DNA of 64,000 bases from Mobula birostris (taxonomy: Eukaryota): positions 213,820,005 through 213,884,004 of the forward strand of contig NC_092370.1 of the NCBI RefSeq assembly GCF_030028105.1, in the 5' to 3' direction. Every line of letters begins with the position of its first letter. Position 1 is the stretch's first letter. The notes beneath the pieces were generated by a model that was not told the origin of the DNA, searched no databases, and worked only from the letters and a program-made list of their open reading frames with translations. Both the position numbers and the translations under genes were made by a program. This document shows, piece by piece, positions 1 through 61,832 of the stretch.

Positions 1-1058
1 TTAACCACAGAGTCAACCTGCACAGCTGCTTTGAGCGTCCTATGGACTTGGACCCCAGGATCCCTCTGATCCTCCAAAAGTCTTGCCATTAATACTATAT
101 TCTGCCATCATATTTGACCTACCAAAATGAACCACTTCACACTTATCTGGGTTGAACTCCATCTGCCACTTCTCAGCCCAGTTTTGCATCCTATCAATGT
201 CCCACTGTAACCTCTGACAGCCCTCCACACTATCCACAACACCCCCAACCTTTGTGTCATCAGCAAACTTACTAACCCATCCCTCCACTTCCTCAGCCAG
301 GTCATTTCTCAAAATTATGAAGAGTATGGGTCCCAGAACAGATCCCTGAGGCACACCACTGGTCACCGACTTCCATGCAGAAAGTGACTCGTCTACAACC
401 ACTCTTTCCCTTCTGTGGGCGAGCCAGTTCTGAATCCACAAAGCAATGTCCCCTTGGATCCCATGCCTCCTTACTTTCTCAATAAGCCTTGCATGGGGTA
501 CCTTATCAAATGCCTTAATGAAATCCACATACACTGCATCTACTGCTCTACTTTCATCAACATGTTCAGTTACATCCTCGAAAAAATTCAATCAGCCTCG
601 TAAGCCACGGCCTGCCCTTGACAAAGCCATGCTGACTATTTCTTATCATGTTGTACCTCTTCAAATGTTCATAAGTCCTGCCTCTCAGGATCTTCTCCAT
701 CAACTTACCAACCACTGAAGTAAGACTCACTGGTCTATAATTCCCTAGGGATATCTCTACTCCCTTTCTTGAATAAAGGAACAACATCCACAACCCTCCA
801 ATCCTCTGGAACCTCTCCTGTCCCCATTGATGATGCAAAGATAGTCACCAGAGGCTCAGCAATCTCCTCCCTCACCTCTCACAGTAGCCTGGGGTACACC
901 TCATCCGGTCCCAGCAACTTATCCAACTTGATGCTTTCCAAAAGCTCCAGCACATTCTTTTTCTTAATATCTACATGATCAAGCTTTTTAGTCTTCTGCA
1001 AGTCATCACTACAATCACCAAGATCCTTCTCCATCGTGAATACTGAAGTAAAGTATTT
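1..1058 (-). mobile_element. CR1-clade LINE, decayed reverse transcriptase fragment
   Basis: ORFs 566-838 and 40-591 read NYRPVSLTSVVGKLME, DAVYVDFIKAFDKVPH, SGVPQGSVLGP and KFADDTKVGG, typical CR1 RT motifs; frameshifted. Confidence 0.92.
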
Positions 1059-1059
1059 A

Positions 1060-2256
1060 CCTACTGATGTTTATTATAAACCTATGGCTCTTACAGCTAC
1101 CTGGACTATACTTTCTCCCACCCTATTACTTGTAAAAACGCCATCCCCTTCTCTCAATTTCTCTGCCTCCACTGCATCTGCTCTCAGAAGGAGGCTTTTC
1201 ATCCCAGAATGAAGAAGATGTCCTCCTTCATCAAAGAAAGGGGCTTCCCTCCCTCCACTATCAACCCTGCCCTCAACCCTATCGCTTTCATCTCACGCCC
1301 TGCTCTCACCCCATCCTCTCGCCACCCTACTAGGAGTAGGGTTCCTCTTGTCCTCACCTACCACCCTACCAACCTCCGTGTCCAGCACATAATTTCTGCA
1401 ACTTCCCCCATCACTAACATGATCCCACTACCAAGCACATTTTTCCCTCCCCCCACCATTTTCTGCTTTCCATAGTGATCACTCCCCCACACAGCTCTTT
1501 TGTCCATTCGTCCCTCCTCACTGATCTTCCTCTTGGAACTTATCCTATGCCTGCCCGTACACCTCCTTCCTCACTACCATTCAGGGCCCCAAACAGTCCT
1601 TCCAGGTGAGGTGACACTTCACCTGTGAGTCTGTAGGGGTCATATATTGTGTCTGGTGCTCCCGGTGTGGCCTCCTGTATATCAGTGAATCCTGATGTAG
1701 GTTGGGAGACCACTTCGCCAAGCACCCAGTGGCCACCATTTTATTTCCACTTCCCATTTTGATATGTCTATCCATGACCTCCTCTACTGTCGTGATGATG
1801 CCACACACAGGGTGGAAGAACAATAACTTATATTTCATTTCGATAACCTCCAACCTGATAGCATGAACCTCAATTCCTCGTACTCCTCCCCCCCACCACC
1901 TTTCACCATTCCCCATTCCCTTTTTCCTCTCACCTTATCTTCTTGCCTGTCCATTGCCTCCCTCTGGTGCTCCTCCCCTTTTTCTTTCTTCCATGGCCTC
2001 TCCCATCAGATTCCCCCTTCTCCAGCCCTGTATCGCTTTCACCAATCAACTTCCCAGCTTTTTACTTCAACCCTCCCCCTCCCTGTTTCAACTATCACCT
2101 TGTGTTTCTCCCTCCCCTCCCTTCCCCCCATCTTTTAACTCTTCTCATCTTTTTTTCGCCAGTCCTGCTGAAGGGTCAGGGCCCAAAACATCGACTGTAC
2201 TCTTTTCTCATAGATACTGCCTGTCCTATTGAGTTTTTCCAGTATTTTGTGTGCAT
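1060..2256 (+). mobile_element. Penelope-like element (PLE), 5'-truncated: RT C-terminus, GIY-YIG endonuclease and terminal module
   Basis: YYKP...YLDY..SHP..CKNAIPFSQF and MSSFIKERGFP; FTCESVGVIYCV.CSRCGLLYI (GIY-YIG-like); pyrimidine-rich 3' region; decayed hammerhead at 2161-2197. Confidence 0.88.
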
Positions 2257-6578: not shown

Positions 6579-6615
6579 TTTTGTAATTCGCTATTATTAG
6601 ATGAATGCTTGATTA

Positions 6616-8530: not shown

Positions 8531-8885
8531 CACTTGGAATAGTGATAATCCTATTCTGATTGCCAATGTGTTCTTGAACTCCATCCAACCCATTTACAAT
8601 ATCAGCTCTTTACCTTTAATATCACACTGAGGCTCATCACATACTCAGAAAACTTCGGATTACTTTCCAAGTCTGAGCTGCTTGACTGTCATGAGTTGAT
8701 TTTTGAAAACCACAGTTTTACAATTTCTCCGTCTCCGCCGCATCTGCTCTCAGGATGAGGCTTTTCATTCCAGGACGAAGGAGGTGTCTACATGAGGAAA
8801 TCTGCAGATGCTGGAATTTCAAGCAACACACATAAAAATTGCTGGTGAACGCAGCAGGCCAGGAAGCATCTATAGGAAGAGGTAT

Positions 8886-8921
8886 AGTTGACGTTTCGGG
8901 CCGAGACCCTTTGTCAGGACT
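8886..8921 (-). ncRNA. Hammerhead ribozyme motif, core-mutated (CUGACAA)
   Basis: Minus strand AGTCCTGACAAAGGGTCTCGGCCCGAAACGTCAACT. Confidence 0.7.
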
Positions 8922-10521
8922 AACAGAAGGAAGAGATAGTAAGTGATTTGATAGTGGGAGGGGGAGGCAGAGATCCGAAATGATGGGAGAAGACTGGAGG
9001 GGGAAGGGATGGAGCTAAGAGCTGGAAAGTTGATTGGCAAAAGGGATACGAGAGGATCATGGGATGGGAGGCCTAGGGAGAAAGAAAGGGGAGGGGGGAA
9101 GTGCAGAGGATGGGCAAGGAGTATAGTGAGAGGGACAGAGGGAGAAAAAGAAGAGATAGAAAAAATATATATATTATAATAAATAAATAAATAATGGATG
9201 GGGTACGAAGGGGAGGTGGGGCATTAACGGAAGTTAGAGAAGTCAATGTTCATGCCATCAGGTTGGAGGCTACCCAGATGGAATATGAGGTGTTGTTCCT
9301 CCAACCTGAATGTGGCTTCATCTTGACAGTAAAAGAGACCGTGGATAGACAAATCAGAATGGGAATAGGACGTGGAATTAAAATGTGTGGCCACTGGGAG
9401 ATCCTGCTTTCTCTGGCGGACAGAGCGTGGGTGTTCAGCAAAATGGTCTCCCAGCCTGCGTCGGGTCTCGCCAATATATAGAAGGCTGCATCGGGAGCAC
9501 CGGACGCAGTATATCACCCCAGCCAACTCACAGGTGAAGTGTTGCCTCACCTGGAAGGATTGTCTGGGGCCCTGAATGGTGGTGAGGGAGGAAGTGTAAG
9601 GGTATGTGTAGCACTTGTTCCGCTTACAAGAATAAGTGCCAGGAGGGAGATCAGTGGGGAGGGATGGGAAGGAGATTCCCTTCCTCCACCATCAACTCTG
9701 CTTTCAAATGCATCTCCCCCATTTCATGCACATCTGCTCTCACCCCATCCTCCTGCCACCCCACTAGGGATAGGGTTCCCCTTGTCCTCACCTACCACCC
9801 CACCAGCCTTTGGGTCCAATGTATGATTCTCCGTAACTTCAGCCACCTCCAACTGGATCCCACCACCAAGCACATCTTTCCCTCCCCCCCCCCCTTCTGC
9901 TTTCCGCAGGGATCGCTCCCTACATGACTCCCTTGTCCATTTGTCCCCCCCATCCCTTCCCACTGATCTCCCTCCCGGCACTTATCCTTGTAAGCGGAAC
10001 AAGTGCTACACATGCCTTTACACTTCCTCCCCCACCACCATTCAGGGCCCCAGACAGTCCTTCCAGGTGAGGCGACACTTCACCTGTGAGTCGACTGTGT
10101 CCGGTGCTCCCAGTGTGGCCTTCTATATATTGGCTAGGTGCAACGCAGACTGGGAGACCGTTTTGCTGAACACTTCCAACCTGATGGCATGAACATTGAC
10201 TTCTCTAATTTCCGTTAATGCGCCTCCTCCCCTTCTTACCCCATCCCTTATTTATTATTTTTTATTTTTTTCCCCTTTCTTTCTCTCTTTTATCTCCTTC
10301 TGTCCATCTCACTATATCTTCCTCTAATGCTCCCCTTCCCCTTTTTTTCTCCCTGGGCCTCCCATCCCATGATCCTCTCCTCTTCTCCAGCCTGGTATCC
10401 CTTTTGCCAATCAACTTTCCAGCTCTTTGCTCCATCCTTCCTCCTCCTGTCTTCTTCTATCATTTCAGATCTCCCCCTCCTCCTCCCACTTTCAAATCTC
10501 TTACTCACTCTTCTTTCAGTT

Positions 10522-10557
10522 AGTCCTGACGAAGGGACTCGGCCCGAAACGTCGACT
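10522..10557 (+). ncRNA. Minimal type I hammerhead ribozyme, intact core
   Basis: AGTC / CTGACGA / AGGGACTCGGCCC / GAAA / CGTC / GACT; predicted cleavage after C10553. Confidence 0.8.
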
Positions 10558-10819
10558 GTACCACTTCCTACAGATGCTGCCTGGCCTGCTGTGTTCCACC
10601 AGCATTTTGTGTGTGTTGCTTGAATTTCCAGCATCTGCAGATTTCCTCGTGTTTACAGTTTTGTTGGCATCACTTTCCATAGAGTAGCAACTTGGAAAAT
10701 TACTGCAGGTATTCCTTTCTGTAAAGTCCTCCATGAGCTCTGGTGGTGGAAATTGACTCTGAAATGTGTAGACCTGGTAAGGATGTTATGATATGAATGA
10801 GCCTCAGGGGCAGATACAC

Positions 10820-11036
10820 TAGAAGAGATGCAGACAAATTTTCAGATGCAACAGACAAAATGCTGGTGGAGCTGAACAGGTTGGCCAGGATCTATGGAAG
10901 GAAATGGACAGTTGATGTATGGGTTGTGTCCTTTCATCTGTCCATTTCCCTCCATAGTGGCTGCCTGGGCTGTTGAGCTCCTGCAACATTTTGAGTCTTG
11001 CTCCATATTCCAGCATTTACTGTCTCCTGTGTCTCC
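10820..11036. repeat. Palindromic mini-element formed by two inverted PLE terminal modules
   Basis: Left arm CAAAATGCTGGTGGAGCTGAACAGG...CTATGGAAGGAAATGGACAG is the approximate reverse complement of right arm CTGTCCATTTCCCTCCATAG...GAGCTCCTGCAACATTTTG. Confidence 0.7.
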
Positions 11037-14964: not shown

Positions 14965-15590
14965 TGTGGCCTCCTGTATATTGGTGAGACCCAACGTAGA
15001 TTGGGAGACTGCTTCGCTGGGCACCTACCAAAAAAAAGTGGGATCTCCCGGTAGCCACCATTTCAATTCTAATTCCCATGGCCTCCCCTATTGCCTTGAT
15101 GAGACCACACTCAGGTTGGAGGAGCAACACCTTATATTGAGTTTGGGTTGCCTCCAACCTGATGGCAAGAACAGTGATTTCTCAAATCTCCGGTAACCCC
15201 CACCCCCTTCCCCATTCCCATTTCCCTCTCTTACCTTTTTCCTTACCTGCTCCTTCTCCTTCCTTGTCTGCCATGGTCTTCTACCCTTTCCCATCAGACT
15301 ACCCCACCTCCAGCCCTTTATCTCTTTCACCTATCAACTTTCCAGTTCTTTACTCACCCTCTCCGCCCCTTCCGGTTTCACATATCACCTACCACCTTGT
15401 ACTCCTTCTTACCCTCAACCCACCTTATTGCTCTGACTTCTCATTTATTCTCTAGTCCTGATGAAGGGTCTCAGCCTGAAACATCAACTGTTCATTCTTT
15501 TCCATAGATGCTGCCTGGCCTGCTGAGTTCCTCCAGCATTTTGTGTGCGTGTTGCTTTGTATTTCCAGCACCTGCAGATTTTCTCATGTC
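14965..15590 (+). mobile_element. PLE 3' fragment (GIY-YIG tail and terminal module)
   Basis: HHFNSNSHGL.YC.DETTLRLEEQHLILSLGCLQPDG; hammerhead CTGATGA...GAAACATC at 15454-15489. Confidence 0.82.
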
Positions 15591-15594
15591 TGGG

Positions 15595-16275
15595 TATAAA
15601 CAGTCAACATTTTGAACCGAGACCCCCTCAACAGGACTGGAAAAAAAAGGGGGCAGAAGCCAGAATAAGAAGGCAGGTGTAGGGGAAGATGTCCAAGCTG
15701 CCATGAGTTAGGAAACTCGGCTGGGGGAGGGAGAATGAAGTAAGAAGCAGGAAGGTGTTGTGGAGGAGGTAAAAGGTTGAAGGAGGAATCTAATAGGAGA
15801 GGACAGAGGACAGAGGATCAGGGGAAAGGGAAGGGGAAGAGAAGAATGCCCATGGCCTCCTCTACTACCATGATGAGGCCAAGCTCAGGTTGGAAGAGCA
15901 ATGCTTCATATTCTGTTTGCGTAGCTGCCAACCTGATGGCATGAAAATCTCCATCTTCATCTATTCACTCCACTCTCTCTCCTTCTGTTTTTTTTTCATT
16001 CCTCGTTATTATTATCCGTTCTCCCCTTCTCTTCTCCTCACCTGCAGCTTCTTACTTCATCTCTCTCCCCCATCCATCCAATTTTCCCCTCACCTGGTCT
16101 CAAATCACCTGCCAACCTGTACTCCTTCCCTTCTCTCCACCTTCTTATTTTCGGCTTCTGTTCCCTTCCCCTCCCAGTCCTGGTGAAGGGTCTCAGCCCC
16201 AAAAGTCAACTGCTTCGGAGCCAAGACTCTTCAAAGATGCTGCCCGCCTTGTTGAATTCCTCCAGCATTTTGTGC
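15595..16275. mobile_element. Inverted PLE pair: minus terminal module (15595-15845) joined to plus 3' fragment (15848-16275)
   Basis: Decayed hammerheads at 15601-15638 (minus) and 16176-16211 (plus); LEEQCFIFCLRSCQPDGM endonuclease tail. Confidence 0.7.
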
Positions 16276-23239: not shown

Positions 23240-23910
23240 GTTCAAATTCCAAAGTAAGTTTATTATCAAAGTATGTACATGTCACAATATACTACCTTGA
23301 GATTCATTTTCTTGCAGACATTCACAGGAAAACAGGGAAATACAATGGAATCAATGAAAAACTACACACAAAGATTGACAAACAAAATGTGCAGAAGACA
23401 AACTATACAAACAAAATTAAATGAATTATTTAATTTAAAAACCATGAGATGTAGAGTCCTTGAAAGTGAATCCATTGTTTGTGGACACAAACAACAGGAA
23501 TTCTGCAGATGCTGGAAGTTCAAGCAACGCACATCAACGTTGCTGGTGAACGCAGCAGGCCAGGCAGCATCTCTAGGAAGAGGTACAGTCGACACTTCAG
23601 GCCGAGACCCTTCGTCAGGACATTGTTTGTGGAATCAGTTTGGAGTTCATATGAGTGAGGTTATCCACACTGGTTCAGGAGTCTGGTGGATGTAGGGTAA
23701 TAACTGCTCCTGAACCTGGTGGTATGAGACAAAAGGCTGCTGTTCATCCTTCCCGATGACAACAGTGAGCAGGGAGCCTGGCATGGATGGTGGGGTCCTT
23801 GATGATGGATGCTGCTTTCTTGTGGCAGCTCTCCTGTAGCTGTGCTCAATGATGGGTTGGGCTTTACATATGATGGACTGAGTTGATCCACTACACTTTG
23901 TAGACTTTTC
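23240..23910 (-). mobile_element. Rex1/Babar 3' end, interrupted by 23486-23620
   Basis: Same 3' UTR family as 20660-21010; the sequence is continuous across the insertion. Confidence 0.75.
23486..23620 (-). mobile_element. 135-bp PLE terminal-module insertion (hammerhead and 3' structured end) with 13-bp TSD
   Basis: Perfect TSD CATTGTTTGTGGA at 23473-23485 and 23621-23633; minus strand begins (G)TCCTGACGAAGGGTCTCGGCCTGAAGTGTCGACT. Confidence 0.85.
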
Positions 23911-35207: not shown

Positions 35208-35410
35208 ACACACAAAATGCTGGAGGAATTCAGCAGGTCTGGCTGCACCTATAGAAACAAATAGCGCTGGTGTTTTGGGCAGAGAAGGGTCTCAGCCTGA
35301 AATGTTGACTCTTTATTCCTTTCCATAAACTCTGCCTGACCTGCTGAGTGCAAAAGCATTTTGTGTGTGTTACTCTGGATTTCTATCATCTTCAGAATCT
35401 CTTATGTTTA
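35208..35410. repeat. Palindromic PLE-terminal mini-element joined inside the hammerhead
   Basis: CACACAAAATGCTGGAGGAATTCAGCAGGTC vs GACCTGCTGAGTGCAAAAGCATTTTGTGTG; centre GTTTTGGGCAGAG-AAGGGTCTCAGCCTGAAATGTTGACT. Confidence 0.75.
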
Positions 35411-38075: not shown

Positions 38076-38886
38076 CTTTAGGAATTCGATTTCACTGCCA
38101 CTCTGCTTTGTACTTCTGCTGAATGGTAAATTTGTGCTGATGTGACGTTTGACTGCAATTAAGGCAATCATTTCATTGCCTGAATATTAGTCTTTTACTC
38201 TTTTCATTGAATAAGAGTCAAGTGGCACAGACTTGGGCAAATTATTCTCTATTCTACCCAAACCACTGAAGCTGATTATGATATCCTTACTGTCATCTCA
38301 GTTGAAATCAGCTGTCTCAGCACAGAAAGATCCACATGGTCTGCATAGATAAGAAGTGGCAAGGTCACCACAGGAGCTACCCAGAAAACTCACTAAGAGA
38401 TAATGTTTAATTAATAGGCTATCATGTCACTTTCTTCCACTGAGAATTCTCATGGGATAGTAAAGTGCTAATATCCACATGATGCTCCCAGGCCACAAGC
38501 CAAATGAACACTCCTTGTGCTTAAACCAATACAAAACCAAACCATGCCATTGTGGCTTGTCAAAGCTAAGAGATTACAAAGAAGCAAATAGACTAATATT
38601 TATGTTAATTAAGAAAGTAGTATATTGGACAAGGGAATAAAGGGAAATTATTTTAGAATGAAAAAGCTTTTTCATTAATTTTCGTGGTTAAAGGTAAATT
38701 CACCAATTATGTGGAAAGCGATATTTTTTATTATCACGCCTATTTCCCCATTGAGCTTGCCAACCCAAATTTCTTTACATTTCACCCAACAAAACATTTG
38801 GCAGAAAATCAGAAGACAAATAGGTAATTGATTATGAGTTTGAGTTTATTAAAGGGGTATTAATAACAATCTCTTCCTATAAGTAG

Positions 38887-39522
38887 ACCGTTTCACTGAA
38901 TACCTACGCTCTGCCTGCCAGAGAAAGCAGGGTCTCCCAGTGGCCACACAGTTTAATTTCACGTCCCATTCCCATTCTGATATGTCCATCCATGGCCTCC
39001 TCTACTGTCAAGATGAAGCCACACTCGGGTTGGAGGAACAACACCTTATATTCCGCCTGGGTAGCCTCCAACCTAATGGCATGAACATTGACTTCTCTAA
39101 CTTCCATTAATGCCCTTCCTCCCCTTCTTATCCATCCCTTATTTATTTATTTGTTTGTTTGTTTATTTATTTTTTTTCCCCTTTCTTTCTCTCTCTTTTT
39201 CTCCCTCTGTCCCTCTCACTATATCTTCCTCTGGTGCTCCCCCCTCCTTTCTTTCTCCCTCGGCCTCCCAAACCATGATCCTCTCCCTTCTCCAGCCTCG
39301 TATCCCTTTTGCCAATCAACTTTCCAGCTCTTAGCTCCATCCCTCCCCCTCCTGTCTTCTCCTATCATTTTGGATCTCCCCCTCCCCCTCCCACTTTCAA
39401 ATCTCTTACTATCTCTTCTTTCAGTTAGTCCTGACGAAGGGTCTTGGCCCGAAACGTCGACTGTATTTTTTCCTAGAGACACTGCCTGGCCTGCCGCATT
39501 CACCAGCATTTTGTGTGTCTTG
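38887..39522 (+). mobile_element. PLE 3' fragment with 10-bp TSD
   Basis: Endonuclease tail and terminal module; TSD CTATAAGTAG (38877-38886) / CTGTAAGTAG (39523-39532). Confidence 0.88.
39427..39462 (+). ncRNA. Minimal type I hammerhead ribozyme, intact core
   Basis: AGTC CTGACGA AGGGTCTTGGCCC GAAA CGTC GACT; predicted cleavage after C39458. Confidence 0.8.
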
Positions 39523-40175
39523 CTGTAAGTAGGCTGATAGCTTTCCTACAGAAATATTTTACATGTGAAGTAACATCCCTGAGAAAACAAACCATGTCAG
39601 ATATTGAATAAAGAAAATGGATGGTTCAGGACAGTACAGTATTTAAATTTTATACTCCAACAGATTATTAATTTTATGTTTATTGCAAGTCTCCATAGGG
39701 ATCTTTTATATTTAACTAGGTTTGTTGTAGGCCCATCATGAACCGATGATGTCTGAAAACAGCCACGATTCTGTCAATTTAGAAATTAACAGCATGTGAA
39801 ATTGCTGCAAGGACAAGGAGGTGACATAATAAAGCAGAGATTCTGATGTTGCCGCGTAAATCTACAATGCTTGTCAACTATCACAGCATAGGCATCTATA
39901 TCAGACAGCCGCTGTATGTCTTACCAACCCTGGAGATGATAAATTTGTATATACGACATTCTCACAACGGAGATGTGACATCGCTTCTCTTCATTTTATT
40001 TGAAGCAGTTTTAGCTTCCTCCAGCAAATATTTCCTGCAACTATCCTCAGTTTCTTATGGTTCAAGGTTATATTTGATCATTTGTGAGTCCTGCTGATAT
40101 ACTTTTCTATCCATTGTCACTCTCCAGTTTTCAGACTTAGGTTCTGATCTACCGTTAAATGTGCACATCATGGAT

Positions 40176-41924: not shown

Positions 41925-42110
41925 TTGCAGATCCTGCAAATCTGAAATAACACAGAAAATACCAAAATACTCACTGAGCTAGGCCGCATCTATGGAAAGG
42001 GTCAGTGTTCAAATTTCATTTCTGATGAAAGATCTTCAACCTGAAATATTAACTCTTTTTCATGTTACTCTGCCTGACCTGCCGAGCATTTAACGCTTCT
42101 GTATTTTTAT
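41925..42110. repeat. Decayed palindromic PLE-terminal mini-element
   Basis: Minus arm GCAGATCCTGCAAATC...GCCGCATCTATGGAAAG; plus arm CTGATGAAAGATCTTCAACCTGAAATATTAACT...TGCCTGACCTGCCGAGCAT. Confidence 0.55.
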
Positions 42111-45224: not shown

Positions 45225-45540
45225 TGGAATTTCCTGAATCCGCTCCACATTCCCTTTCTTCTATGGTCCACTCTCTTCTCCTATCAGATTCATTCCTCTC
45301 CAACCCTTTATATTTCCTATCCATCTGGATTTACTTGTCATCTTTTAGCTATCTTCCTTCACCTCCCCCCAAACCTTTTTACCTTTTTATTCCGGCATCT
45401 TGCCTCTTCCTTTACAGTCCTAAGGAGGGGTCTCAGCCTGACACGTCGACCGTTTCCTTACATACTGCCTGACTTCCGGAGTTCCTCTGGCACCCTGTGT
45501 GTTGATTTGGATTCTAAGCAATTGCAGATTTTCTTGTGAA
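45225..45540 (+). mobile_element. PLE terminal module (decayed hammerhead at 45416-45451)
   Basis: AGTCCTAAGGAGGGGTCTCAGCCTGACACGTCGACC, followed by a decayed terminal structure. Confidence 0.7.
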
Positions 45541-48800: not shown

Positions 48801-51240
48801 CTCTTCTTATAGACCAATTTCTTTACTTAATATTGATACTAAGATCCTATCTAAAGTTTTGACCCATAGGAGTGAAAATATTTTACCATCTGTCATTTCT
48901 GATAACCAAACTGGATTTATCAAAAATCGATATTCTCACTTTAATATTTGTTGGTTATTAAATGTTATTTATTCTCCTGCTAATATGATATCAGAATGTG
49001 TGGTATCCCTAGATGCTGAGAAAGCTTTTGACAGAGTTGAATGGAATTGTTCATTTAAAATTTAAGAAAAATTCAATTTTGGACCCATTTTCATTCAATG
49101 GATTAAATTACTTTATTTAGCTCCTTCCACCAGGGTTATCACTAATTCTCATAATTCCAAACCATTTAAGCTTCACCATGGCACTAGTCAAGGCTGCCCG
49201 TTGAGCCCTTTGCTTTTTGATCTGGCCTTAGAACCTTTAGCCATTGCCTTTCGAGAATCTAATGATGTCACCCATATTTTAAGGAGAGACACTATTCATA
49301 AAGTCTTGCTTTACACTGATGATCTGCTGCTATTTATTTCTAATGTTGAGACTTCATTTCCCCATGCGCTTTCTTTACTCTCCTGTTTTAGCCAGTTCTC
49401 AGGTTAGAAATTAAATGTACATAAAAGTGAACTTTTCCCTATGAATAATTTGATACTAACAAACTCTAACCTTCCTTTTAAGATTGTAAGAAACCAATTT
49501 ACCTACTTAGCTGTAACAATTACTAAAAACTATAAGCGTTCATTTAAAGAAAATTTTCTTACCCTATTGAATCACGTAAAAGGGATACTATCAAATTGGT
49601 CGCCTTTTTTGTTATCGCTGATCGGCCGAATTAACTCCATTAAAATGAATATATTACCTAAATTTATATATCTTTTTCAGGCATTGCCTGTTTTTATTCC
49701 TAAATCTTTCTTTGATTCTCCTGACTCCATTATATCTTCTTACATATGGAAGAATAAGCGTCTGAGATTAAATAAAATTCACCTTCAGAAAGATAAAAAG
49801 AATGGAGGATTAGCCTTACCAAACTTTAGATTTCATTATTGGGCAGTTAATATAAGAAATCTTACATTTTGGTTATATTACATTAATCGTGAGGATTGCC
49901 CGATATGGGGTTTTCTTTAAAGAAGCTAACACTGTTAATAAATTTTCTATTATTTCTCTTCTTGGATCCTCACTTCCTTTGTCTCTGAGTAAGTTAACTG
50001 CTAATCTGGTAGTTAAACAAACTATGAGAACTTGGATACAATTCCAAAAATACTTTGGCTTATTGAGATTTTCTCTTTCAAGTCAGTTTTTCTAGTTTTT
50101 TTTTTAAACCTTCTATGATTGGTGTGGCTTTTAAAGAATGGGATAGATTAGGTATTAAATGCATTCAGGACTTGTTTGTAGAGGGAAGTCTCTCTTCATT
50201 TGAACAACTGTCAACTAAATATAGTTTACCCAAAACTCATTTTTTTTAATACCTACAAATGATAGAGTTTTTAAGGTCTCAAATGAGTACATTTCCTAAC
50301 AGTCCTGCTAAGAATCTACTAGATGTAATTTTTAATTTGAAATCTTTTTATAATGGATCTATATTTAATATTTATAATATGCTGTTAGGCATGAGAAGTG
50401 TTCCTTTAGATAAAATCAAAAATCTTTGGGAACATGATTTACAGACTTCAGTTTCTGAGAAAACTTGGAATCAAATTTTTAAATTGGTTAACACTTCATC
50501 TTTATGCACCTGCCACTCTCTCCTACAATTTAAAGTTGTCTATAGGGTCCACATGACCAAGGATAAGTTGTCACATTTTTATGTAGATATATCTCCATAT
50601 TGTGATAAATGTAATATTGGAAAAGCTTCACTCATTCATATGTTTTGGACATGTCAGTCTTGGAAAATATTGGAAAGTACTTCAAACTTTCTCAATACTT
50701 TTCAAGGTAAACTTCAAGCCTGATCCTTTGACCGCTTTATTTGGTATTGTTGGAGGAAAGGATATTATTTTGGAGCCATCTGACTTGCACATTTTGGCTT
50801 TTATGTCTTTCGTGGCCAGGAGGATGCTCTTGCTTAAATGGAAGGAGGTCATTCCGCCTACTCAGACTCAATGGTTACGTAATGTGATGTCATGTTTAAA
50901 TTTAGAGAAGATTCGATGTTCAATCTCTGAATCTAGCCAAGACTTTCAAACATTGTGGGGACCTTTTTTGAATTATTTTCAAAACCTTTCATTTGTTGTT
51001 AAAGCACAGATGATGACTAATAACTTATTTTCCCTTTTTTTGTCTTTACTGATCAGCTTCAGTCTTGGTATTGGGTTAGATTTTTTTATAATAAAATTAC
51101 TATGTTTCAATGTTACAAATTAATTAATCTGTATGAATGTAGGGTAAGAAGTTTATGCAATTTAGTATAATGTATTGATATATTTTTCTTGTACTCTGTA
51201 TTCTTATGTAAAATTAATAAAAACATTGGAAAAAATAAAT
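45803..51240 (+). mobile_element. L1-clade LINE, decayed: ORF1 remnant, APE endonuclease, RT, C-terminal CCHC region and A-rich tail
   Basis: ANVYAPN, VMGGDFN, YFRIDFF, SDHAPV, KAPGPDGFSGEF, SYRPISLLNIDTKILSK, LDAEKAFDRVEW, YTDDLLLF, CDKC...HMFWTC; AATAAAAACATTGGAAAAAATAAA end. Confidence 0.92.
46106..47561 (+). mobile_element. Rex1/Babar 3' half inserted in the L1 endonuclease, with about 100 bp of L1-derived 5' extension
   Basis: ORF 46197-46973 LNDYRPVALISHIMKTLE...LDPLQFAY...DFSSAFNTI...KFSDDSAIVG; (TATGAC)n tail; GAATA repeat at 46101-46105 / 47562-47566; removal restores YAPN-IDDPG. Confidence 0.88.
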
Positions 51241-52312: not shown

Positions 52313-53870
52313 GGCATGTATTAGGGAGCTGGAGCAGGGATCCAATCACAGAGTGCACACAGTGATATTAATTGAGTAACAAATCCCAAAGTGCAAACAA
52401 AGTCAGCATCAAAGTTCAGGCAGAGATCAGAACATCCAGAGAAATCCAAAAACCAAAATCAGGAAACAGGCAGAGTCAATATTCAAACAGATAGAGTACA
52501 GATACAAATACTGGAAACACTCAAGGAACTTCACTGGCACAATCTAGCAACAAACAAGTGAAAACACAGGACTGAAATACACTGAGCAATAAACAGAGAG
52601 GCAGATGATAGGTGGAGCACAATGAGACACCGGTGGCAGCAATACAGGTAATAATGAGAAACAGGTGAGAGGCGGAGTACTCAGTAATATAGGGGCTGGA
52701 GTAGAGCAGGAGCGGGGACAGGAGCACATGGCAATACAAAACCACAGACTGACAGATAGGGGAAAACACACAAAGACAGAGTTCAACTGGAAGTACTGAC
52801 AGTACCTCGCGCCCCCCCCCCCCCCCCACCGCCTCTACAGATGCCTCCTGGTGTCACGGCAGGTAGTGCTGGGTGCTGGCAATGAAAGTCCCTGATGAGA
52901 GAGGGGTTCAGGATGTTATGGGCAGAGACCCAGCACTTCTCCTCAGGGCCATAGCCCTCCCAGTCCACAAGGTACTGGAGGCCACAGGCCCGGTGACAAA
53001 TGTCCAGCAGCCAGCTCACTGTGAAGGCCTCTGACCCATCGATGAGCCAAGGGGAGGGGGTGTTGGGGACAGGACATGGGGGTGGCTCATGAAAGGCTTG
53101 ACGCGGGGCACATGGAAGGTGGGATGAATATGGCGGAGAGTGGAGGGGAGCTTGAGATGGACGGCAGCAGGACTGATGACTTCAGCAATGGGAAAGGGGC
53201 GGATGAAAAGAGGGGCAAGCTTACAGGAATCCACCTTGAGGGGCAGGTCTCGGGTTGAAAGCCACACATGCTGTTCCTGGCGGTAACATGGAGCCTTGGA
53301 GCAATGGCTGTCAGCTTAATGCTTGACCCTAGTAGGGGCACGGAGAAGGGCAGAGCGAGTGCACCTCTATTTCCACTGACAATGGCGGATGGATGCCTCA
53401 GGAGATGGAATGCCAACCTCCTCCTGGGCAGTGGAGGTTGGTAGCCAAGGCGCTACTCAAAAGAGGACAGACCAGTGGATGAGGGTGGATGAGAGTTTAT
53501 GGCATACTTGGCCCAGGGTAGCCACTGACTCCACACGGAGGGGATCTGGGAGACCAGCACCGCAATACTGTCTCTAGCTGTTGGTTGACCCACTCAGTAT
53601 GGCCATTGGTCTCTGGGTGGAATCCTGAAGACAGACTCACAGAGGCACCCCTAAGATTACAGAATGCCCTACAGAAGTTGGATGTGAATTGAGAGTGGTC
53701 TGACACAACATCTATAGATAAACCATGTAATTTTAAAACATGCAGTACTAATAACTTAGTAGGCTGGGAAACCATTTCGCTCAACACCTACACTCTGTCC
53801 GCCACAGAAAGCAGGATCTCCCAGTGGCCATATATTTTAATTCCACGTCCCATTCCCATTCTGATATGTG

Positions 53871-54740
53871 CAAAAATGATGAAACTATGTACAGGGAGGA
53901 GGTCAAACACCTAGAGAGTTGGTGCAGGGATAACAACTTAATGCTTAATGTCACCAAAACCAAGGAGATGATCGTCGATTTCAGACGGTCTCAGCCTGAG
54001 CACACACCCCTCAGCATCAGCGGCTCCACAGTGGAGAGAGTGGAAAACATCAAGTTCCTTGAGGTGCAGATCTCGGACAATCTCACCTGGTCCGGGAACA
54101 CAACCAGGATTGTGAAACAGGCTCAGCAGAGATTGCACTTTCTGAGGAAGCTTAAACAAGCATTACTCCCCGCTAACATCTTAACTACATTCTACAGAGG
54201 CGTGGTTAAGAGTGTGCTGGCCTTTTGCATCACAACCTGGTACTCCAGCTGCAGTGTTGTCGACAAAAAAGCTTTGCAGAGGGTGGTTAGGTGAGCAGAG
54301 GTTACTGGGGTCTCCCTACCTTCTGTCCAAGACCTCTTTCAGAGTCTATGCCTCCAGAATACACGATACATCATTAAAGACCCCTCACACCCTCTCCAGG
54401 AACTGTTTGTTCTTCTGCCACCAGGCAAACGTTACAGGAGCATAAAAACTAAAACCACAAGGCTACTTAAACAGCTTCCTCCCACAGGCAGTCAGACTGC
54501 TAAATAGCTGCTCTACCTGACTCTGCTTTGGACACTTAACTTTCACTGGACACTTACAACTTGATTTTAACCGACATGTGGCTGTTGTGTTTTACTATTT
54601 ATTGTTATGTTTATTATTAGTGTTGCGTTTGTTATTTTATGATTGCACTGCCCCTGAGAAACGCTGTCTCATTCTGCCCTGCAGAGCTGATGTATGGTTA
54701 GAATGACAATAAAGTTTTTTGAATCTTTGAATCTTGAATC
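53871..54740 (+). mobile_element. Rex1/Babar 3' fragment nested in the PLE
   Basis: NDETMYREEVKHLESWCRDNNLMLNVTKTKEMIVDFRR...AQQRLHFLRKL; AATGACAATAAA and (GAATCTT)n tail; PLE resumes at about 54741. Confidence 0.88.
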
Positions 54741-55166
54741 TACTCACGGCCTCCTCTACTAGTAGTCAAGATGAAGCCACACTCAGGTTGGAGGAACAAC
54801 CTTATATTCCGTCTGGGTAGCCTCCAACCTGATGGCATGAAAATTGACTTCTCTAACTTCCGTTAATGCCCCTCCTCCCCTTCTTACCCCATCCCTTATT
54901 TATTTCCTTTTTCTTTCTCTCTCTTTTGTCTCCCTCTGTCTCTCACTATAACTCCTTGCCTGCTCTCCACCTTTCTCTGGGCTCCACTTCCCCTTTCTTT
55001 CTCTCTAGGCTTCCTGTCCCATGATCCTCTCCCTTCTCCAGCCTTGTATCCCTTTTGCCAATCAACTTTCCAGCTCTTGGCTCCATCCCTCCCCCTCCTG
55101 TCTTCTCCTATCATTTTGGATCTCCCCCTCCCACTTTCAAATCTTTTACTATCTCTTCTTTCAGTT

Positions 55167-55202
55167 AGTCCTGACGAAGGGTCTCGGCCCGAAACGTCGA
55201 CT
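55167..55202 (+). ncRNA. Minimal type I hammerhead ribozyme, intact consensus-like copy
   Basis: AGTC CTGACGA AGGGTCTCGGCCC GAAA CGTC GACT; predicted cleavage after C55198. Confidence 0.82.
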
Positions 55203-56837
55203 GTACCTCTTCCTATAGATGCTGCCTGGCCTGCTGCATTCCACCAGCATTTTGAGTGTGCTGCTTGAATTTCCAGCATCTGCAGATTTCCTCGTGTTTG
55301 TGTACTAATAATTTGGGTGTTTCTTTGGCAGAGGGGAGTTTAGATAAAGGAATGAAGTGTACAGACTTGGAGAAACGACCAACTACTGTGAGAATGGTGG
55401 TGTTACCATCTGATGGGGAAAGATCAGTGACAAAGTCCAGGGCAATGTGAGACCAGGGTCTCTCGGGGATAGACAGGGGTTGTAACAGACCAGCAGGTGA
55501 CCGGTTAGAGTTCTTGCCTTGAGAACAGACCGAGCAGGCTGAGACAAAGTTGTGGATGTCATCTCCCATGGAGGGCCACCAGAACCGCCGACTGATGAAG
55601 GCCTGAGTACGCTTTGTTCCAAGGTGACAGGATAACCAGGAGGAATGACCCCACTGCAATACCTGTGAGCGGACAGAACTGAGAACATAAACACGGTTAG
55701 TGGGGCATTGACTAGGGGCTGCCTCGCTCTGTTGAGCAGCTTGCACCCTGGCTTCAATGTCTCATTGTGCTGCACCCACGAGACAGTGAGCAGGGAGGAT
55801 GACATCAGGTACTTCAGTGGTCTCAGATGAAGGAAATCTTTGGGGAAGGGAATCAGGTTTTCCATTTTTGGAACCGGGGCAGAAGGACAGTAAAATTGAA
55901 TCTTGCGAAAAACAAGGACCAACGAGCTTGATGGGAGTTGAGACGTTTGTCCGTACGGATACATTCCAGATTCTTGTGATCAGTCCAGATTACGAATAGC
56001 ACCTTGGCTCCTCCAACCAATGCCTCCACTCCTCCAGAGCTAGCTTCACAACAGCAGCTCCTGGTTTCCAACATTGTAATTCTGTTCCGTGGGAGTGAGG
56101 TGGAGAGAGAAGGCAGCACAGGGGTGTACCTTCTCATCCTTGGCCGAGCGCTGAGAGAGAACAGCTCCTACACCGATGTCAGATGCATCCACCTCCACAA
56201 TGAACTGTCGGTTGGTGTCGGGTTGAATCAGGATGGGGGCAGAGGTGAAACGTTCCTTCAGGTCAGAGGATGCTTTTTCAGCAGCAGGGAACCAGGAGAA
56301 TCTGACAGATCAGGTAAGAGCAGTGAGTGGTGCAGCCAGTGTACTGTAATCACTGAAGTGGCAATAGAAGTTAGTGAAGCCCAAGAAGCGTTGTAACTCC
56401 TGAAGAGTCGAGGGTTGGGGCCATTCGACCACCACCTTGACCTTCTGTTGTTCCACCTGAATGGAACTGCCTGAAATGACATACCCCAGGAAGGAGACGG
56501 TATTGCGGTATTTCACAGACTTCACAAAGAGCTAGTTCTCCAGAATGTGCTGGAGAATTTTGTGGACGTGACCTGTGTGTTCAGCAAGGGACTTAGAGAA
56601 AATCAAAATGTCATCAAGATACACAAAAACAAATCGGTTCAGCATGTCCCTGAGAACATCATTTACCAGGGCTTGGAAGATGGCAGTGGCATTGGTGAGA
56701 CCGAATGGCATGACCAGATACTCATAATGGCCTGAGATGGTGTTGAAGGCCGTCTTCCACTCGTCCCCCTTGTGGATGCAGACAAGATGGTAGGTGTTAC
56801 GGAGATCAAGACTGATGAAAACTGAGGCTCTTTGCAG

Positions 56838-58627
56838 TAACCATATAACAATTACAGCTCGGAAACAGGCCATCTCAGCCCTTCTAGTCCGTGCCGAACT
56901 CTTACCCTATCCTAGTCCCACCGACCTGCACTCAGCCATAACCCTCCATTCTTTTCCTGTCCATATATCTATCCAATTTAACTTTAAACGACAACATATA
57001 ACCTGCCTCAACCACTTCTGCTGGAAGCTCATTCCGCACAGCTACCACTCTCTGAGTAAAGAAGTTCCCCCTCATGTTACCCCTAAACTTTTGTCCTCTA
57101 ATTCTCAACCCATGCCCTCTTGTTTGAATCTTCCCCACTCTCAATAGAAAAAAGTCTAACCACATCAGCTCTATCAATCCCCCTCATAATTTTAAACACC
57201 TCTATCAAGACCCCCTCAACCTTCTACGCTCCAAAGAATAAAGATCTAACTTGTTCAACATTTCTCTGTAACTTAGGAGATGAAACCCAGGCAACATTTT
57301 AGTAAACCTCCTCTGTACTCTCTCAATTTTATTGACATCTTTCCTATAATTCGGTGACCAGAACTGTACACGATACTCCAGATTTGGCCTTACCAATGCC
57401 TTATACAATTTCAACATTACATCCCAACTCCTATACTCAATGCTCTGATTAATAAAGGCCAGCATACCAAAAGCTTTCTTCACCACCCTATCCACATGAG
57501 ATTCCACCTTCAGGGAACTATGCACTATTATTCCTAAATCCCTCTGTTCTAAAGCATTATTTAATGCCCTACCATTTACCATATATGTCCTATTCGTTCT
57601 ACCAAAATGTAGCACCTCACATTTTTCAGCATTAAACTCCATCTGCCATCTTTCAGCCCACTCTTCTAACTGTCCTAAATCTCTCTGCAAGTTTTGAAAA
57701 CCTACCTCATCATCCACAACTCCACCTATCTTAGTATCATCTGCATTCTTACTAATCCAATTTACCACCCCATCATCCAGATCATTAATATATATGACAA
57801 ACAACATTGGACCCAGTACAGATCCCTGAGGCACACCGCTACACACCGTCCTCCAATCTGACACACTGTTATCCATCACCACTCTCTGGCGTCTCCCACC
57901 CAGCCACTGCTGAATCCATTTTACTACTTCCATATTAATGCCTAATGATTGAACCCCTTCCTAACTAACCTTCCGTGTGGAACCTTGTCAAAGGCCTTAC
58001 TGAATCCATATAGACAACATCCACTACTTTACCCTCGTCAACTTTCCTAGTAACCTCTTCAAAAAATTCAGTAAATTTTGTCAAACATGACCTTCCACGC
58101 ACAAATCCATGTTGACTGTTCCTAATCAGACCCTGTCTATCCAGAAAATTATATATACCATCTCTAAGAATACTTTCCATCAATTTAGCCACCACTGACG
58201 TCAAACTCACAGGCCGATAATTGCCAGGTTTAGTCTTAGAACCATTTTTAAACAATGGAACCAAATGAGCAATACGCCAATCGTCTGGCACCATTCCCGT
58301 TTCTAATGACATTTGAAATATTTCTGTCAGAGCCCCTGCTATTTCTATACTAACTTCCCTCAAAGTCCTAGGGAATATCTTGTCCGGACCCAGACACTTA
58401 TCCACTTTTATATTCCTTAAAAGTGCCAGTACCTCCTCTTCTTTAATTGTCATACTTTCCATAACTACCCTACTTGCTTTCTTTACCTTACACAATCTAA
58501 TATCCTTCTCCTTGGTGAATACCGAAGAAAAGAAATTGTTCAAAATCTCCTCCACCTCTTCTGGCTCCGCATATAGCCATCCACTGATTCTCCAAGGGAC
58601 CAATTTTATCCCTCACTATCCTTTTGC
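56838..58627 (-). mobile_element. Relatively young CR1 3' 1.8 kb nested in the Gypsy RT
   Basis: Long ORFs 57965-58603, 57205-57933 and 56932-57177 with full CR1 RT motifs; tail ...TGTTATATGGTTA, also seen at 21028. Confidence 0.92.
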
Positions 58628-58816
58628 CACTGCTGTGTACATACATCTATTGATGCTTCTGGACACATCTTCAGTGATGTTCCCGGAATCATCAGGTGTT
58701 TCGGGTCTTTCAACATTATACAACCTCCTCCAGGTGACCCAGCCAGGACTGATCAGACCCCAACTTGTGTCCAGATGGCTAGCTACTTTTCTGCCACTAA
58801 CAGAACTGTAGGAACC
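58628..58816 (-). other. About 190-bp fragment that is neither CR1 nor Gypsy, at the 5' end of the nested CR1; possibly the 3' UTR of an RLE-type (Hero-like) LINE
   Basis: Minus strand GGCTGGGTCACCTGG...TGTTGAAAGACCCGAAACACCTGATGA...CATCACTGAAGATGTGTCC resembles fish RLE-LINE 3' ends, from memory only. Confidence 0.35.
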
Positions 58817-59633
58817 CTTTGTAGTTCAAATGCTGAGGTCATGAGCAGAAGAGGGTAACGGTTCTTAATGATGACTTCATTCAGTCCCTGGTAATCAATG
58901 CATGGACGAAAGGAGCCATCCTTCTTTTCAACAAAGAAAAAACCGGCATCAGCAGGGGCAGAAGACAGCCGGATGATGCCTGCAGCCAGCGACTATTGAA
59001 TGTACTACTCATGGCTTCTGTTTCAGGTATGGGCAGGGAGTACAGGTGGCCCCTTGGGGGAGATGTGCCAGACAAGAGGTCAATGGTGCAATCATATGGA
59101 CGATGAGCTGGCAGGGAAGTGGCCCGGGACTTGCTGAACACAGCCTTGAGGTCCATGTATTCAGGAGGGATGACACTAAGGTCTGAAAATTCGTCGGGAA
59201 TATCTGGGCTTGGAGACAAGGGGATCTGAGCATGGCAGAGGCAGTGGGAGTGAGAATGGGCTCCAGCCTACAATCTTGCAACTGAGCCAGTCAATGTGGG
59301 GGTTGTGTTTAACTAATCAGAGATGGCCCAGGACAATGGGAGCTTGAGGAGAGTCAATAACAAGGTTAACTGTTCATGATGGTTGCTGGATAAACTAAGA
59401 TTCACCGGGGCCATGACATGGGTAGTGTTAGCCAGTCTCCGACATTTCAAGGCGTGGCCTTCAATGGTGACTGGAGAGCAGATGTGGGTAATCCCCACTG
59501 GGCAGCCAAGCTGGAATCGATAAAACAGCCCTCCACACCAGAATAGACCAAGACAGAGATACTCACTGTTGGACGCCCCACTCCAGAGAAGCAGGTATGA
59601 GAGTGAGTGACGAGGAGGGCCGGACAGGTGTCA

Positions 59634-59679
59634 TGCTCACCAGTACCCCTCGACCAACTGGTGAGCACTTGGCTTTTAC
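59634..59679 (-). promoter_or_regulatory. Candidate -1 ribosomal frameshift signal at the gag-pol junction
   Basis: GTAAAAG (59679-59673), 5-nt spacer, then a perfect 11-bp stem (59657-59667 / 59634-59644) directly after the CCHC knuckle. Confidence 0.6.
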
Positions 59680-61832
59680 TGGGCAGGTGGAGATGAAGTG
59701 GTCTGGTTGGCCACAGTACAAACAGGAACAGGTGCTGACTTTCCTTTGTCTTTCAGTCAGCATCAGATGGGTACAGTCAACCTTCATAGCTTCAGGCTCT
59801 AGAACGGGGATTGTAGATGAGGGCAAATGGCAGGGTAATGTAGACTGACGATGAATTTGGAACTCACCCAGTGCCCCCAGGGACCCTTTGGAGCCTCTCT
59901 CTCTGTGGCACTGCTGAAGGCGAACATCAATACAGATGGTCAAATTCACCAGGTCTTCAAAGGTGGCAGGAAGGTCCTGGGTGACCAGCTCATCTTTGAT
60001 GTCTTCGGAAAGGCCATTCAGGAAGGTGTCCTACTGTGCCTCCGAGTTCCAGCCGCTGGAGGTGGCTAGGGTCCCGAACTCTGTGGTGTAATCTGACACA
60101 GATCTGCACCCCGGTGCATGTGCAGCATTTCACGGGCAGCCTGTCTCTCATGTTTGGAGTGATGAAACACTTTTCTTATCTTAGAAAATAACTGAAAACT
60201 TATGCAGAAAGGTGAGCCTGCCTCCCAGACAGCTATTCCCCAGTCTCTCACCCGACTGGACAGTTGGGTGATGACGTAGGCTATCTTGGCTCAATCAGTC
60301 AGAAATGTTGTTGGTTGCAATTCAAAAATGAAGGTGTACTGGGAAAGAAAAGAGCGGCAGGTACCAGGCTCACCTGAGTACTTTTCTGGAGGAGGCAGAC
60401 AGGGCCCTTGGATGGGAGGAGCATGTGGGGATGCAGAGGGCAGGGCAGCAGATGCAGTTGCATAATGTTGATGCGGCTCTGGGACAGCTGGAGTGAGTGA
60501 GTCTGGGCCACAAGATCAGCTACATTGGCAGAAAGCGACTCCACTGCCCTGATCACAGAGTCCAGCTGGTTCTGGTGTCTCCTCAGCATCACTCCCTGTT
60601 GTTCCAGCGCAGCTCTCTGACAACCGGGGTCTGCTGGATCCATTCTGGCCAGATTGTACCATGGAGCAGGGATCCTATCACAGACCCAGTACTGTGTACA
60701 TAGTGATATTAATTGAGTAAAAAATCTCCAAGGTGCAAACAAAGTCAGCGTCAAAGTTCAAGCAGAGATCAAAACATCCAGAGAAATCCAAAAACCAGAA
60801 TCGGGAAACAGGCAGAGTCAATATTCAGACAGACAGAGTACAGATACAAATACTGGAAAGGCTCAGGAAAATTCACTGGCACAATCTGGCAACAAACAGG
60901 TGAAAACACAGGACTGAAATACACTGAGCAATAAACAGAGAGGCAGATGATAGGTGGAGCACAATGGGACAGAAGTGGCAGCGAAACAGGTAATAATGAG
61001 AAACAGGTGAGAGGCAGAGTACTCAGTAATACAGGGGCTGGAGTAGAGCAGGAACGGGGACAGGAGCACATGGGGCATGAAAACAAACAACACCACATGG
61101 CAATACAAAACCACAGACTGATGGCTAGTGAGAAAACACACAAAAAGACCAAGTTCAACTGGAGGTACTGACACCACGGAGGTCAGACTAACTGGCCTAT
61201 AGTTTCCTTTCTTCTGCCTCTCTCCCTTCTTGAAGAGTGGAGCGACATCTGCAATTGGAGCATCCGCTCTTAAAGACACCATCACTGATAGAGGAGATAC
61301 TTACAGTTTCCTCCTCCCTTTAGTTGCTTAATTGAACTGTGATTTCTTGTTCATTCAAAACCCCTTGTCAATCCCAATTTTGGAATGCTAATCCTTATTT
61401 ATAAATCTAATCTAATCTCTGTAATTTCTTCTATTCTCTATAACTTCTGTACTCTTAATCTTAGTTTCCTGTGTATCCACTCAGTTAAGTATTCCAACAC
61501 TACTCAGCTCCCAAAGATATAGGTTTGGTACAGCACTCCACATTTCCGATCTCTTTCCAGACTCTCCTCAAGTCAATCACTCTCACACAGTATCTGAATG
61601 TTCAATTTTGTTTAACTTTTCTGTGAAGCACTTTGTAACATTTCATTATTAAAATGTACAATGAAAATGCTTTTTTTTTGTTATTTTACCTTAATTACTA
61701 TAGTTTCAAAGTTCCTATTGTACATGAAGACTGGGCTCTTTGAGTATGACGCCTCAGTGACTTCACTCAGAAAGCAGAATTTGTTTTGGTTTATTATTGT
61801 CATATGTACCACGATACAGTGGAAAGCTTGTC

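What the first reader, a model, noticed from the sequence alone, without database searches (positions are those of the whole stretch)
55167..55202. Intact minimal hammerhead ribozymes in the Penelope terminal module (also 10522-10557 and 39427-39462)
Seen: three copies read AGTC-CUGACGA-(A)GGG(U/A)CU(C/U)GGCCC-GAAA-C-GUC-GACU. This gives stem I AGUC/GACU, the full CUGANGA/GAAA core, a GGG/CCC stem II and a GUC cleavage triplet. Stem III is reduced to the palindrome ACGU, which cannot close intramolecularly. Established: PLEs carry minimal type I hammerheads, and hammerheads with a very short palindromic stem III are proposed to cleave as dimers. Inference: this PLE family processes its RNA by dimer-dependent self-cleavage after C10553, C39458 and C55198.
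Basis: partly seen in the sequence, partly recalled or inferred. Interest (0 to 1): 0.8.

Follow-up and report, generated by a model that had tools for sequence, protein, structure and literature searches.

The report
Known minimal ribozyme in Penelope retrotransposon
This is a published kind of tiny self-cutting RNA motif carried by a very abundant jumping gene, and the genomic copies suggest the element is usually copied from uncut RNA, with many copies starting at the motif's first letter rather than at its cut site.

Summary
The three 36-mers fit the published minimal type I hammerhead of Penelope-like elements (Cervera & de la Peña 2014). They lie in the terminal repeat of a Neptune-type element (RT, Cys linker, GIY-YIG) with at least 73,573 young copies. 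Conservation across subfamilies and one compensatory stem I change argue for past selection on the fold. The three copies are intact simply because they are young.

Of 100 sampled copies, 19 start at the 5' edge of stem I and 1 at the cut site. Genome-wide, about 24% start at -2..+3 against about 4% at 28..35. None of 100 listed copies ends at the cut site. Most templates were therefore uncleaved, as reported in vitro for the anole element.

The sharp boundary at the ribozyme's first base was not found in my searches of print. It most likely marks an RNA start, but no RNA data test that, and cleavage itself is untested. The scan has 225 earlier hammerhead/Penelope notes on other genomes and none on this sequence. 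Ordinary class, one testable twist.

The parts
55167..55202 (+). Minimal type I hammerhead: stem I 55167-55170/55199-55202; core CUGACGA 55171-55177; unpaired A 55178; stem-loop II 55179-55190; GAAA 55191-55194; palindrome ACGU 55194-55197; predicted cut after C55198
   Evidence: fits the consensus of PMC4209133 Fig. S3
54745..55299 (+). 5'-truncated Penelope-like copy: end of endonuclease region, 3' UTR, hammerhead, long-tail 3' end
   Evidence: blastn to the near-full element L032, 81%
55140..55168 (+). Pyrimidine tract ending in CAG-TT-AG; looks like a 3' splice acceptor whose AG is the first two bases of stem I (TTAGTCC also fits the initiator consensus YYANWYY, recalled)
   Evidence: sequence; tract + YAG seen in older subfamilies; inferred, use not shown
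55203..55299 (+). Downstream pLTR segment with two alternative 3' ends about 35 nt apart (the PLE 'tail')
   Evidence: 3' ends at 95-102 in 29 and at 132-139 in 41 of 100 copies, A55167 = 0
10522..10557 (+). Second hammerhead copy, intact core
9669..10655 (+). 5'-truncated copy (with an internal deletion) carrying the 10522 hammerhead
8795..9668 (-). Inverted head-to-head partner copy, with a GIY-YIG frame (9224-9691 minus) and a hammerhead at 8886-8921 with G8 changed
   Evidence: (PF01541 E=8e-4, below the curated cut-off)
39427..39462 (+). Third hammerhead copy, intact core
38885..39524 (+). 5'-truncated copy with short-tail 3' end carrying the 39427 hammerhead
23483..23621 (-). Mini-copy that starts at the second base of stem I and runs to the tail; example of the hot-spot class; core decayed
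15454..15489 (+). Older-subfamily hammerhead (N7 = U), decayed
16176..16211 (+). Decayed older hammerhead copy
2161..2196 (+). Decayed older hammerhead copy at the end of a 1057-2235 fragment
45416..45451 (+). Decayed older hammerhead copy
42018..42054 (+). Relic of the divergent family with a 13-nt stem-loop II

Best explanation
The 36-mer is the standard minimal type I hammerhead in the pseudo-LTR of a Neptune-type Penelope-like retrotransposon. Shown: its position in the element, its fit to the consensus, its conservation between subfamilies. Inferred from literature: it is a latent ribozyme that cuts after GUC only when two copies pair through ACGU or when the element's protein refolds it. 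Shown here: cutting does not set the ends of integrated copies. 3' ends fall at two sites about 65 and 100 nt past the ribozyme (inferred RT start sites), and about a quarter of young copies begin at or within 3 nt of the ribozyme's first base. Inferred: integration uses uncleaved RNA, and one major RNA species begins at that A. Cleavage, if it occurs, is more likely a side step (turnover, or trimming of the message ahead of the ORF, whose first long-frame ATG lies 170 nt past A0). The named loci are dead fragments that are intact through youth.
For: Element: 558-aa frame with RVT_1 and GIY-YIG hits (both just under or under Pfam's cut-offs) and CKRNKCYTC linker; pLTR-hammerhead-tail-ORF junction in 7 of 20 loci, plus one cut inside the ribozyme. 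Selection on the fold: the majority base of all 36 columns is the same in 192 young and 107 older copies except N7 and a C/U switch at 11.1 that keeps the pair, while linker columns 38-42 hold only 36-55% in the older set. Stem I inner pair covaries: U partnered with A in 15 of 23, C with A in 12 of 77 (hand tally of 100 of 163 matches; p=1e-5). No selection after insertion: core mismatches 23/783 against 41/957 elsewhere, p=0.16; core intact in 66 of 87. Ends: 19 of 100 at -1..+5, 1 at 32; 13 against 4 (29-35) of 64 bystander copies; 3,120/41,613 against 538/73,573 genome-wide, about 8-fold per base after filter correction; 0 of 100 listed 3' ends at the cut. Literature: anole HHR mutants insert normally, cleavage needs protein, no RNA-seq ends at the site (PMC11167929).
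Against: No activity or RNA-end data for this family. The covariation is one evolutionary event between two families and rests on a hand tally. Loop II and the segment 48-95 are about as conserved as the core, so conservation is not specific to catalysis. About 33 of 100 listed copies start exactly at GAC after the cut (about 1.3% of all copies), a small local excess; 24 of the 33 are recurrent inverted junctions with GAC(U) microhomology, but 9 are not. Samples come from the first 8 Mb of one contig, and the 64 bystanders include partners of selected copies. In D. virilis the start site lies 46 nt before a 75-nt intron that ends at helix I, not at the ribozyme.
Confidence: 0.8

Rival explanations
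1. One reading: tandem transcripts self-cleave as dimers at GUC^, and the cleaved (possibly circularised) unit RNA is the retrotransposition template.
For: Palindromic ACGU with no loop; intact core; published low-level dimer and trimer cleavage of a Schistosoma min-HHR; small excess of starts at base 32. A religated circle would leave no end at the cut site.
Against: 5' ends at the cut are about 1% and 3' ends under about 0.4% of copies. A circle does not explain a hard boundary at A0. Predicted energies: active dimer -14.7, two inactive monomers -23.8, inactive duplex -32.1 kcal/mol (nearest-neighbour model, which ignores core contacts).
Confidence: 0.15
2. Cause of the A0 boundary, option 1: A0 is a transcription start (internal promoter downstream), so RT started in the tail runs off the RNA end after about 100 or 135 nt.
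For: Hand tally of the 100 listed matches: ends at +3 16, +2 14, +1 21, 0 30, -1 13, -2 5, one not truncated. Matching is far above chance up to A0 (48/69) and at chance beyond it (18/48, 5/18). No shared upstream exon; target duplications often abut the junction. TTAGTCC fits YYANWYY (recalled).
Against: No capped-end data; no clear extra G at junctions; the Drosophila start lies further upstream.
Confidence: 0.5
3. Cause of the A0 boundary, option 2: the pyrimidine tract and AG form a splice acceptor; splicing factors or another protein bound there stop RT, like a toeprint.
For: Tract + YAG overlapping stem I is kept in older subfamilies. The D. virilis intron ends at helix I, and several rows of Fig. 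S3 show a U-rich tract + AG at stem I (Adineta, Takifugu, Nasonia; my reading). 21 contigs of one possibly-RNA run diverge just after the AG (weak).
Against: A spliced end would start at +2, yet A0 and G1 are kept far above chance. No copy joins the one strong upstream donor to this acceptor (0 matches). Three quarters of copies read through the site.
Confidence: 0.25
4. Cause of the A0 boundary, option 3: the cDNA folds back on its own stem I complement, which ends synthesis or stops resection at A0 and primes the inverted copy.
For: 17 of 30 hot-spot loci have an inverted copy flush upstream. Recurrent snap-back-type junctions through GACT or CGTC are seen. Self-priming was proposed for rotifer PLEs.
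Against: The cDNA hairpin is weak (-2.6 to -3.8 kcal/mol). Stronger ones lie at 44-96, and there is no end peak at 36-63 (6 of 64; 64-96 not examined). 13 of 30 have no inverted partner.
Confidence: 0.2
5. The fold is kept as a protein-binding or promoter signal and no longer cuts.
For: No genomic trace of cutting; non-core bases are equally conserved; the monomer prefers an inactive hairpin, and the active-compatible fold has probability 0.0008.
Against: Only the position free in hammerheads (N7) and pair-preserving positions differ between subfamilies. The anole homologue does cut when protein is added.
Confidence: 0.15

Closest known systems
Minimal hammerheads (min-HHR) in pLTRs of metazoan Penelope-like elements (Cervera & de la Peña 2014, PMC4209133; main text parts 1-2 of 4 and supplement file 2 parts 1-2 of 3 read)
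   Same: Consensus NNN-CUGANGAH-G..C-GAAA-palindrome-NUH-NNN, short stem I, unpaired base before stem II, mostly solitary truncated copies. The Acropora Neptune motif has the same CUGACGAA-GGG and CGUC layout.
   Different: No cartilaginous fish appears among the 56 rows of Fig. S3 (host identity here is from recall, untested). Copy number is far above the 4,000-9,000 reported for coelacanth and Xenopus. Copy ends were not mapped there in what I read.
PAc, Poseidon element of Anolis (Frangieh et al. 2024, PMC11167929; parts 1-2 of 4 read, supplementary figures not visible)
   Same: HHR in the pLTR-ORF junction, two RT start sites giving the tail, uncleaved RNA as template.
   Different: PAc's ORF starts inside stem II; here the first long-frame ATG is 170 nt past A0. 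This element has the Neptune/Nematis Cys linker. No 5' boundary at the ribozyme is described in the text I read.
Dimer-cleaving PLE hammerheads (Lünse, Weinberg & Breaker, RNA Biol 14:1499; not held, known from its title and citing reviews PMC6765202 and PMC6466107, passages)
   Same: Very short palindromic stem III, type I.
   Different: I could not see whether this family was among those tested.
D. virilis Penelope (Schostak et al. 2008, PMC2377424, passages)
   Same: Internal TATA-less promoter in the pLTR; intron acceptor at helix I.
   Different: Its start site is about 120 nt upstream of the ribozyme; no donor or intron was found here.
Animal non-LTR retrozymes (bioRxiv 10.64898/2026.07.22.740005, part 1 of 5 and passages)
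   Same: Non-coding PLE-derived units with type I HHR; reported in one chondrichthyan.
   Different: Retrozymes are head-to-tail arrays; here neighbours are mostly inverted (25 inverted, 12 direct pairs within 3.8 kb among 99 motifs).

Membership tests
min-HHR of PLEs | Core CUGANGA / GAAA / NUH | tested here: met
min-HHR of PLEs | Type I, 4-5 bp stem I | tested here: met
   AGUC/GACU; C-G to U-A covariation
min-HHR of PLEs | Unpaired base between 9 and 10.1; G10.1-C11.1 | tested here: met
   A55178; G-C, or G-U in about half of young copies
min-HHR of PLEs | Palindromic 15.2-16.2 without loop III | tested here: met
   ACGU
min-HHR of PLEs | Located in the pLTR of a PLE | tested here: met
min-HHR of PLEs | Self-cleavage as dimer or with protein | not testable with these tools
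   only energy estimates and genomic ends
Rfam hammerhead families | Covariance-model score | tested here: not met
   no hammerhead hit at E<=1; probably because stem III is missing (inferred)
EN+ Penelope-like elements | Single ORF with RT and C-terminal GIY-YIG | tested here: met
   558-aa frame, PF00078 E=7e-7 and PF01541 E=0.0075, both under the curated cut-offs; that copy's N-terminal part lies in other frames
EN+ Penelope-like elements | Partial tandems, inverted 5' copies, 30-40 nt optional tail | tested here: met
Neptune clade | Cys motif CX2-5CxxC between RT and EN (shared with Nematis) | tested here: met
   CKRNKCYTC (definition)
Neptune clade | RT phylogeny | not tested
   no tree built
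Non-LTR retrozymes | Head-to-tail arrays of short HHR units | tested here: not met
   mostly solitary or inverted in the loci held; arrays elsewhere in the genome were not searched

The most novel reading that the evidence does not exclude
The element's transcript begins at the first base of its hammerhead, so ribozyme + tail (about 100-135 nt) is a self-contained promoter and RT-start unit. It has spread as a SINE-like mini-element making up about a quarter of a family of over 70,000 young copies, always from uncleaved RNA, with the stem I complement in the cDNA helping to prime the inverted repeat. The PLE hammerhead would then mark the RNA 5' end and act as an off-switch, not as the enzyme that makes unit-length templates.
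Probability: 0.35. Interest if true: 0.6.

Novelty: new member of a known kind. Interest (0 to 1): 0.3.

Why it matters
The motif itself has been in print since 2014, so its presence here is expected. What the PLE hammerhead does is still open (Craig et al. call it unclear). This family's very large copy number lets insertion ends be read as a record of the RNA templates. They say the templates were uncleaved, which extends the single in vitro result from anole to a genomic scale, and they point to one exact base (A0) to test by CAGE or 5' RACE.

Tried and rejected
Rfam scan: no hammerhead hit. Folding z-scores were not significant (-0.2 to -1.3). Sequencing runs: no RNA holder listed. Four contig runs were laid; contigs cannot show RNA ends, and no row marked the cut site, which is no evidence either way. 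Spliced copies from the one strong upstream donor: 0. Copies skipping the ribozyme with upstream sequence intact, a possible sign of RT jumping a cut RNA: 4, against 2 of a control deletion; uninformative. Cap-derived extra G: no clear signal in 30 loci. The filter was badly designed (it let the consensus through at 3 of 4 places), so only its listing was used, as an upper bound. One search found only mutated copies of the main family and no further family. One dimer structure was an invalid pseudoknot and was discarded. Flanks of the matches were not seen, so their junction classes rest on 11 letters each. Lünse et al. was not held. Paper searches showed no report of this family or of a 5' boundary at stem I, but subscription papers, Repbase/Dfam, bioRxiv supplements and Frangieh Fig. 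S2 were not seen and may bear on that. Earlier scan notes: none for this genome or sequence.

Full report
Numbering: A55167, the first base of stem I, is position 0; the predicted cut lies between 31 and 32.

Observation. The three 36-mers are as described. The genome (4.0 Gb) has 4,596 exact copies and none of the reversed control. A 26-mer inside the motif occurs 41,613 times and a 24-mer just downstream 73,573 times. In 83.8 kb not chosen by any pattern there are 22 hits of all ages, so the total may approach a million if that region is typical. At least six more decayed copies lie in the window. Rfam does not see the motif.

The element. Locus L032 holds a near-complete copy: a 558-aa frame with RT, a CKRNKCYTC linker and a GIY-YIG domain (both Pfam hits under the curated cut-offs). 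That linker marks the Neptune and Nematis clades; I built no tree. In 7 of 20 loci found with the ORF's 5' part, a whole ribozyme and tail sit directly before the ORF, whose first long-frame ATG is at +170. Inverted 5'-truncated partners are common. 3' ends cluster at 95-102 (29 of 100) and 132-139 (41 of 100), the usual tail. The three named copies are 5'-truncated fragments: 54745-55299, 38885-39524, and 9669-10655 with an inverted partner.

Is the fold selected? Among 299 of 382 copies that span the motif, 192 young and 107 older ones share the majority base at every column of the 36-mer except N7 and a C/U switch at 11.1 that keeps the pair. Linker columns 38-42 hold only 36-55% in the older set. 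An older family has stem I with U-A in place of C-G and a 13-nt stem-loop II: U pairs with A in 15 of 23, C with A in 12 of 77, the latter explained by CpG decay (hand tally of 100 of 163 matches; p=1e-5). That is one event. Loop II and segment 48-95 are conserved too, so the signal is not specific to catalysis. After insertion the core decays like its neighbours (23/783 against 41/957, p=0.16; 66 of 87 cores intact). 'Intact' therefore means young.

Can it cut? Not testable here. The monomer's best fold pairs the core GACG with CGUC (-11.9 kcal/mol), and the active-compatible fold has probability 0.0008. The double hammerhead scores -14.7, against -23.8 for two inactive monomers and -32.1 for an inactive duplex (the model ignores core contacts). 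This fits published behaviour: no monomer activity and low dimer activity for a Schistosoma motif, and cleavage only with the element's protein in anole.

Do copy ends mark the cut? No. In the first 100 genomic matches of a 33-mer starting at 32, 19 begin at -1..+5, 10 at 6..28, 1 at 32 and 12 at -50..-2. In 64 copies not picked by a pattern, 13 begin at -1..+5 and 4 at 29..35 (partly partners of picked copies). Genome-wide, patterns demanding non-element letters upstream give 3,120 of 41,613 for ends at -2..+3 and 538 of 73,573 for ends at 28..35, or about 24% and 4% after correcting for the filter. Against my reading: about 33 of the 100 listed start exactly at 32 (about 1.3% of copies), more than the roughly 6 per neighbouring base. 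24 of them are recurrent inverted junctions through GAC(T), which a cDNA snapping back on stem I explains; 9 are not. On the 3' side, 0 of 100 listed matches stop at the cut (under about 0.4% of copies), and 0 of 30. Templates were therefore mostly uncleaved, or religated.

The A0 boundary. In the 100 listed matches (hand tally) ends fall at +3 16, +2 14, +1 21, 0 30, -1 13, -2 5, and one is not truncated. Agreement with the element is far above chance through A0 (48/69) and at chance beyond it (18/48, 5/18). Of 30 such loci, 17 have an inverted copy flush upstream; most of the other 13 show a target duplication at or near the junction and no shared leader. Three causes fit. (1) An RNA start at A0, which RT runs off (0.5); TTAGTCC matches the initiator consensus (recalled). 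(2) A protein block on the conserved pyrimidine tract and AG, which resembles the intron acceptor at helix I of D. virilis Penelope (0.25); no spliced copy from the one strong donor was found. (3) cDNA fold-back on stem I (0.2); the hairpin is weak. RNA runs gave nothing usable.

Comparison and novelty. Every sequence-level feature of the min-HHR class is met, and a coral Neptune motif has the same layout. Activity is untested. No cartilaginous fish is in that paper's alignment; I take the host to be one from recall only. A 2026 preprint reports HHR retrozymes in one chondrichthyan. Six paper searches showed no account of a 5' boundary at stem I; Lünse et al. and Frangieh Fig. S2 were not seen and may bear on this.

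Verdict. A real motif of a known kind in a new host family. The dimer-processing inference is unsupported for integrated copies. The end map adds one modest, testable observation. Interest 0.3.

Noticed in passing
window 10811-11032: Two old copies of the same terminal module lie head to head and form a long hairpin; this gave the two weak microRNA hits in Rfam, which are artefacts of the inverted repeat. Similar pair at 35207-35412.
   Followed up: partly
window 55219-55268; L081 +52: A short upstream ORF (16 codons in L081) starts 20 nt after the predicted cut site, ahead of the main ORF's ATG at +170.
   Followed up: no
L001:1470-1500 and other young copies: One subfamily has a perfect TACTAAC branch-point-like word 13-19 nt upstream of stem I; others read TACTCAC, TACTAGC or TACTATC.
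   Followed up: partly
young family, position 23 (window 55190): About half of young copies (101 of 192) carry G-U in place of G10.1-C11.1, a change in the source element rather than CpG decay.
   Followed up: partly
G000 listing: Recurrent identical inverted junctions through GACT, CGTC or GTC-CT-GAC suggest cDNA snap-back on the ribozyme's own stems; flanks not seen.
   Followed up: partly
window 31630-32571: Tandem repeat open in several frames on both strands (EKVKP-like and SPAC-like translations).
   Followed up: no
window 28252-29972: Remnants of a DDE transposase of the pogo/Tigger type on the minus strand (label from recall).
   Followed up: no
window 52783-60757: Fragments of an LTR retroelement (gag-, RT-, integrase- and chromodomain-like frames, minus strand), interrupted by a CR1-type LINE at about 57200-58800 and adjoining the 55167 copy (labels from recall).
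   Followed up: no
window 48613-51123: L1/Tx1-type LINE fragments on the plus strand (label from recall).
   Followed up: no
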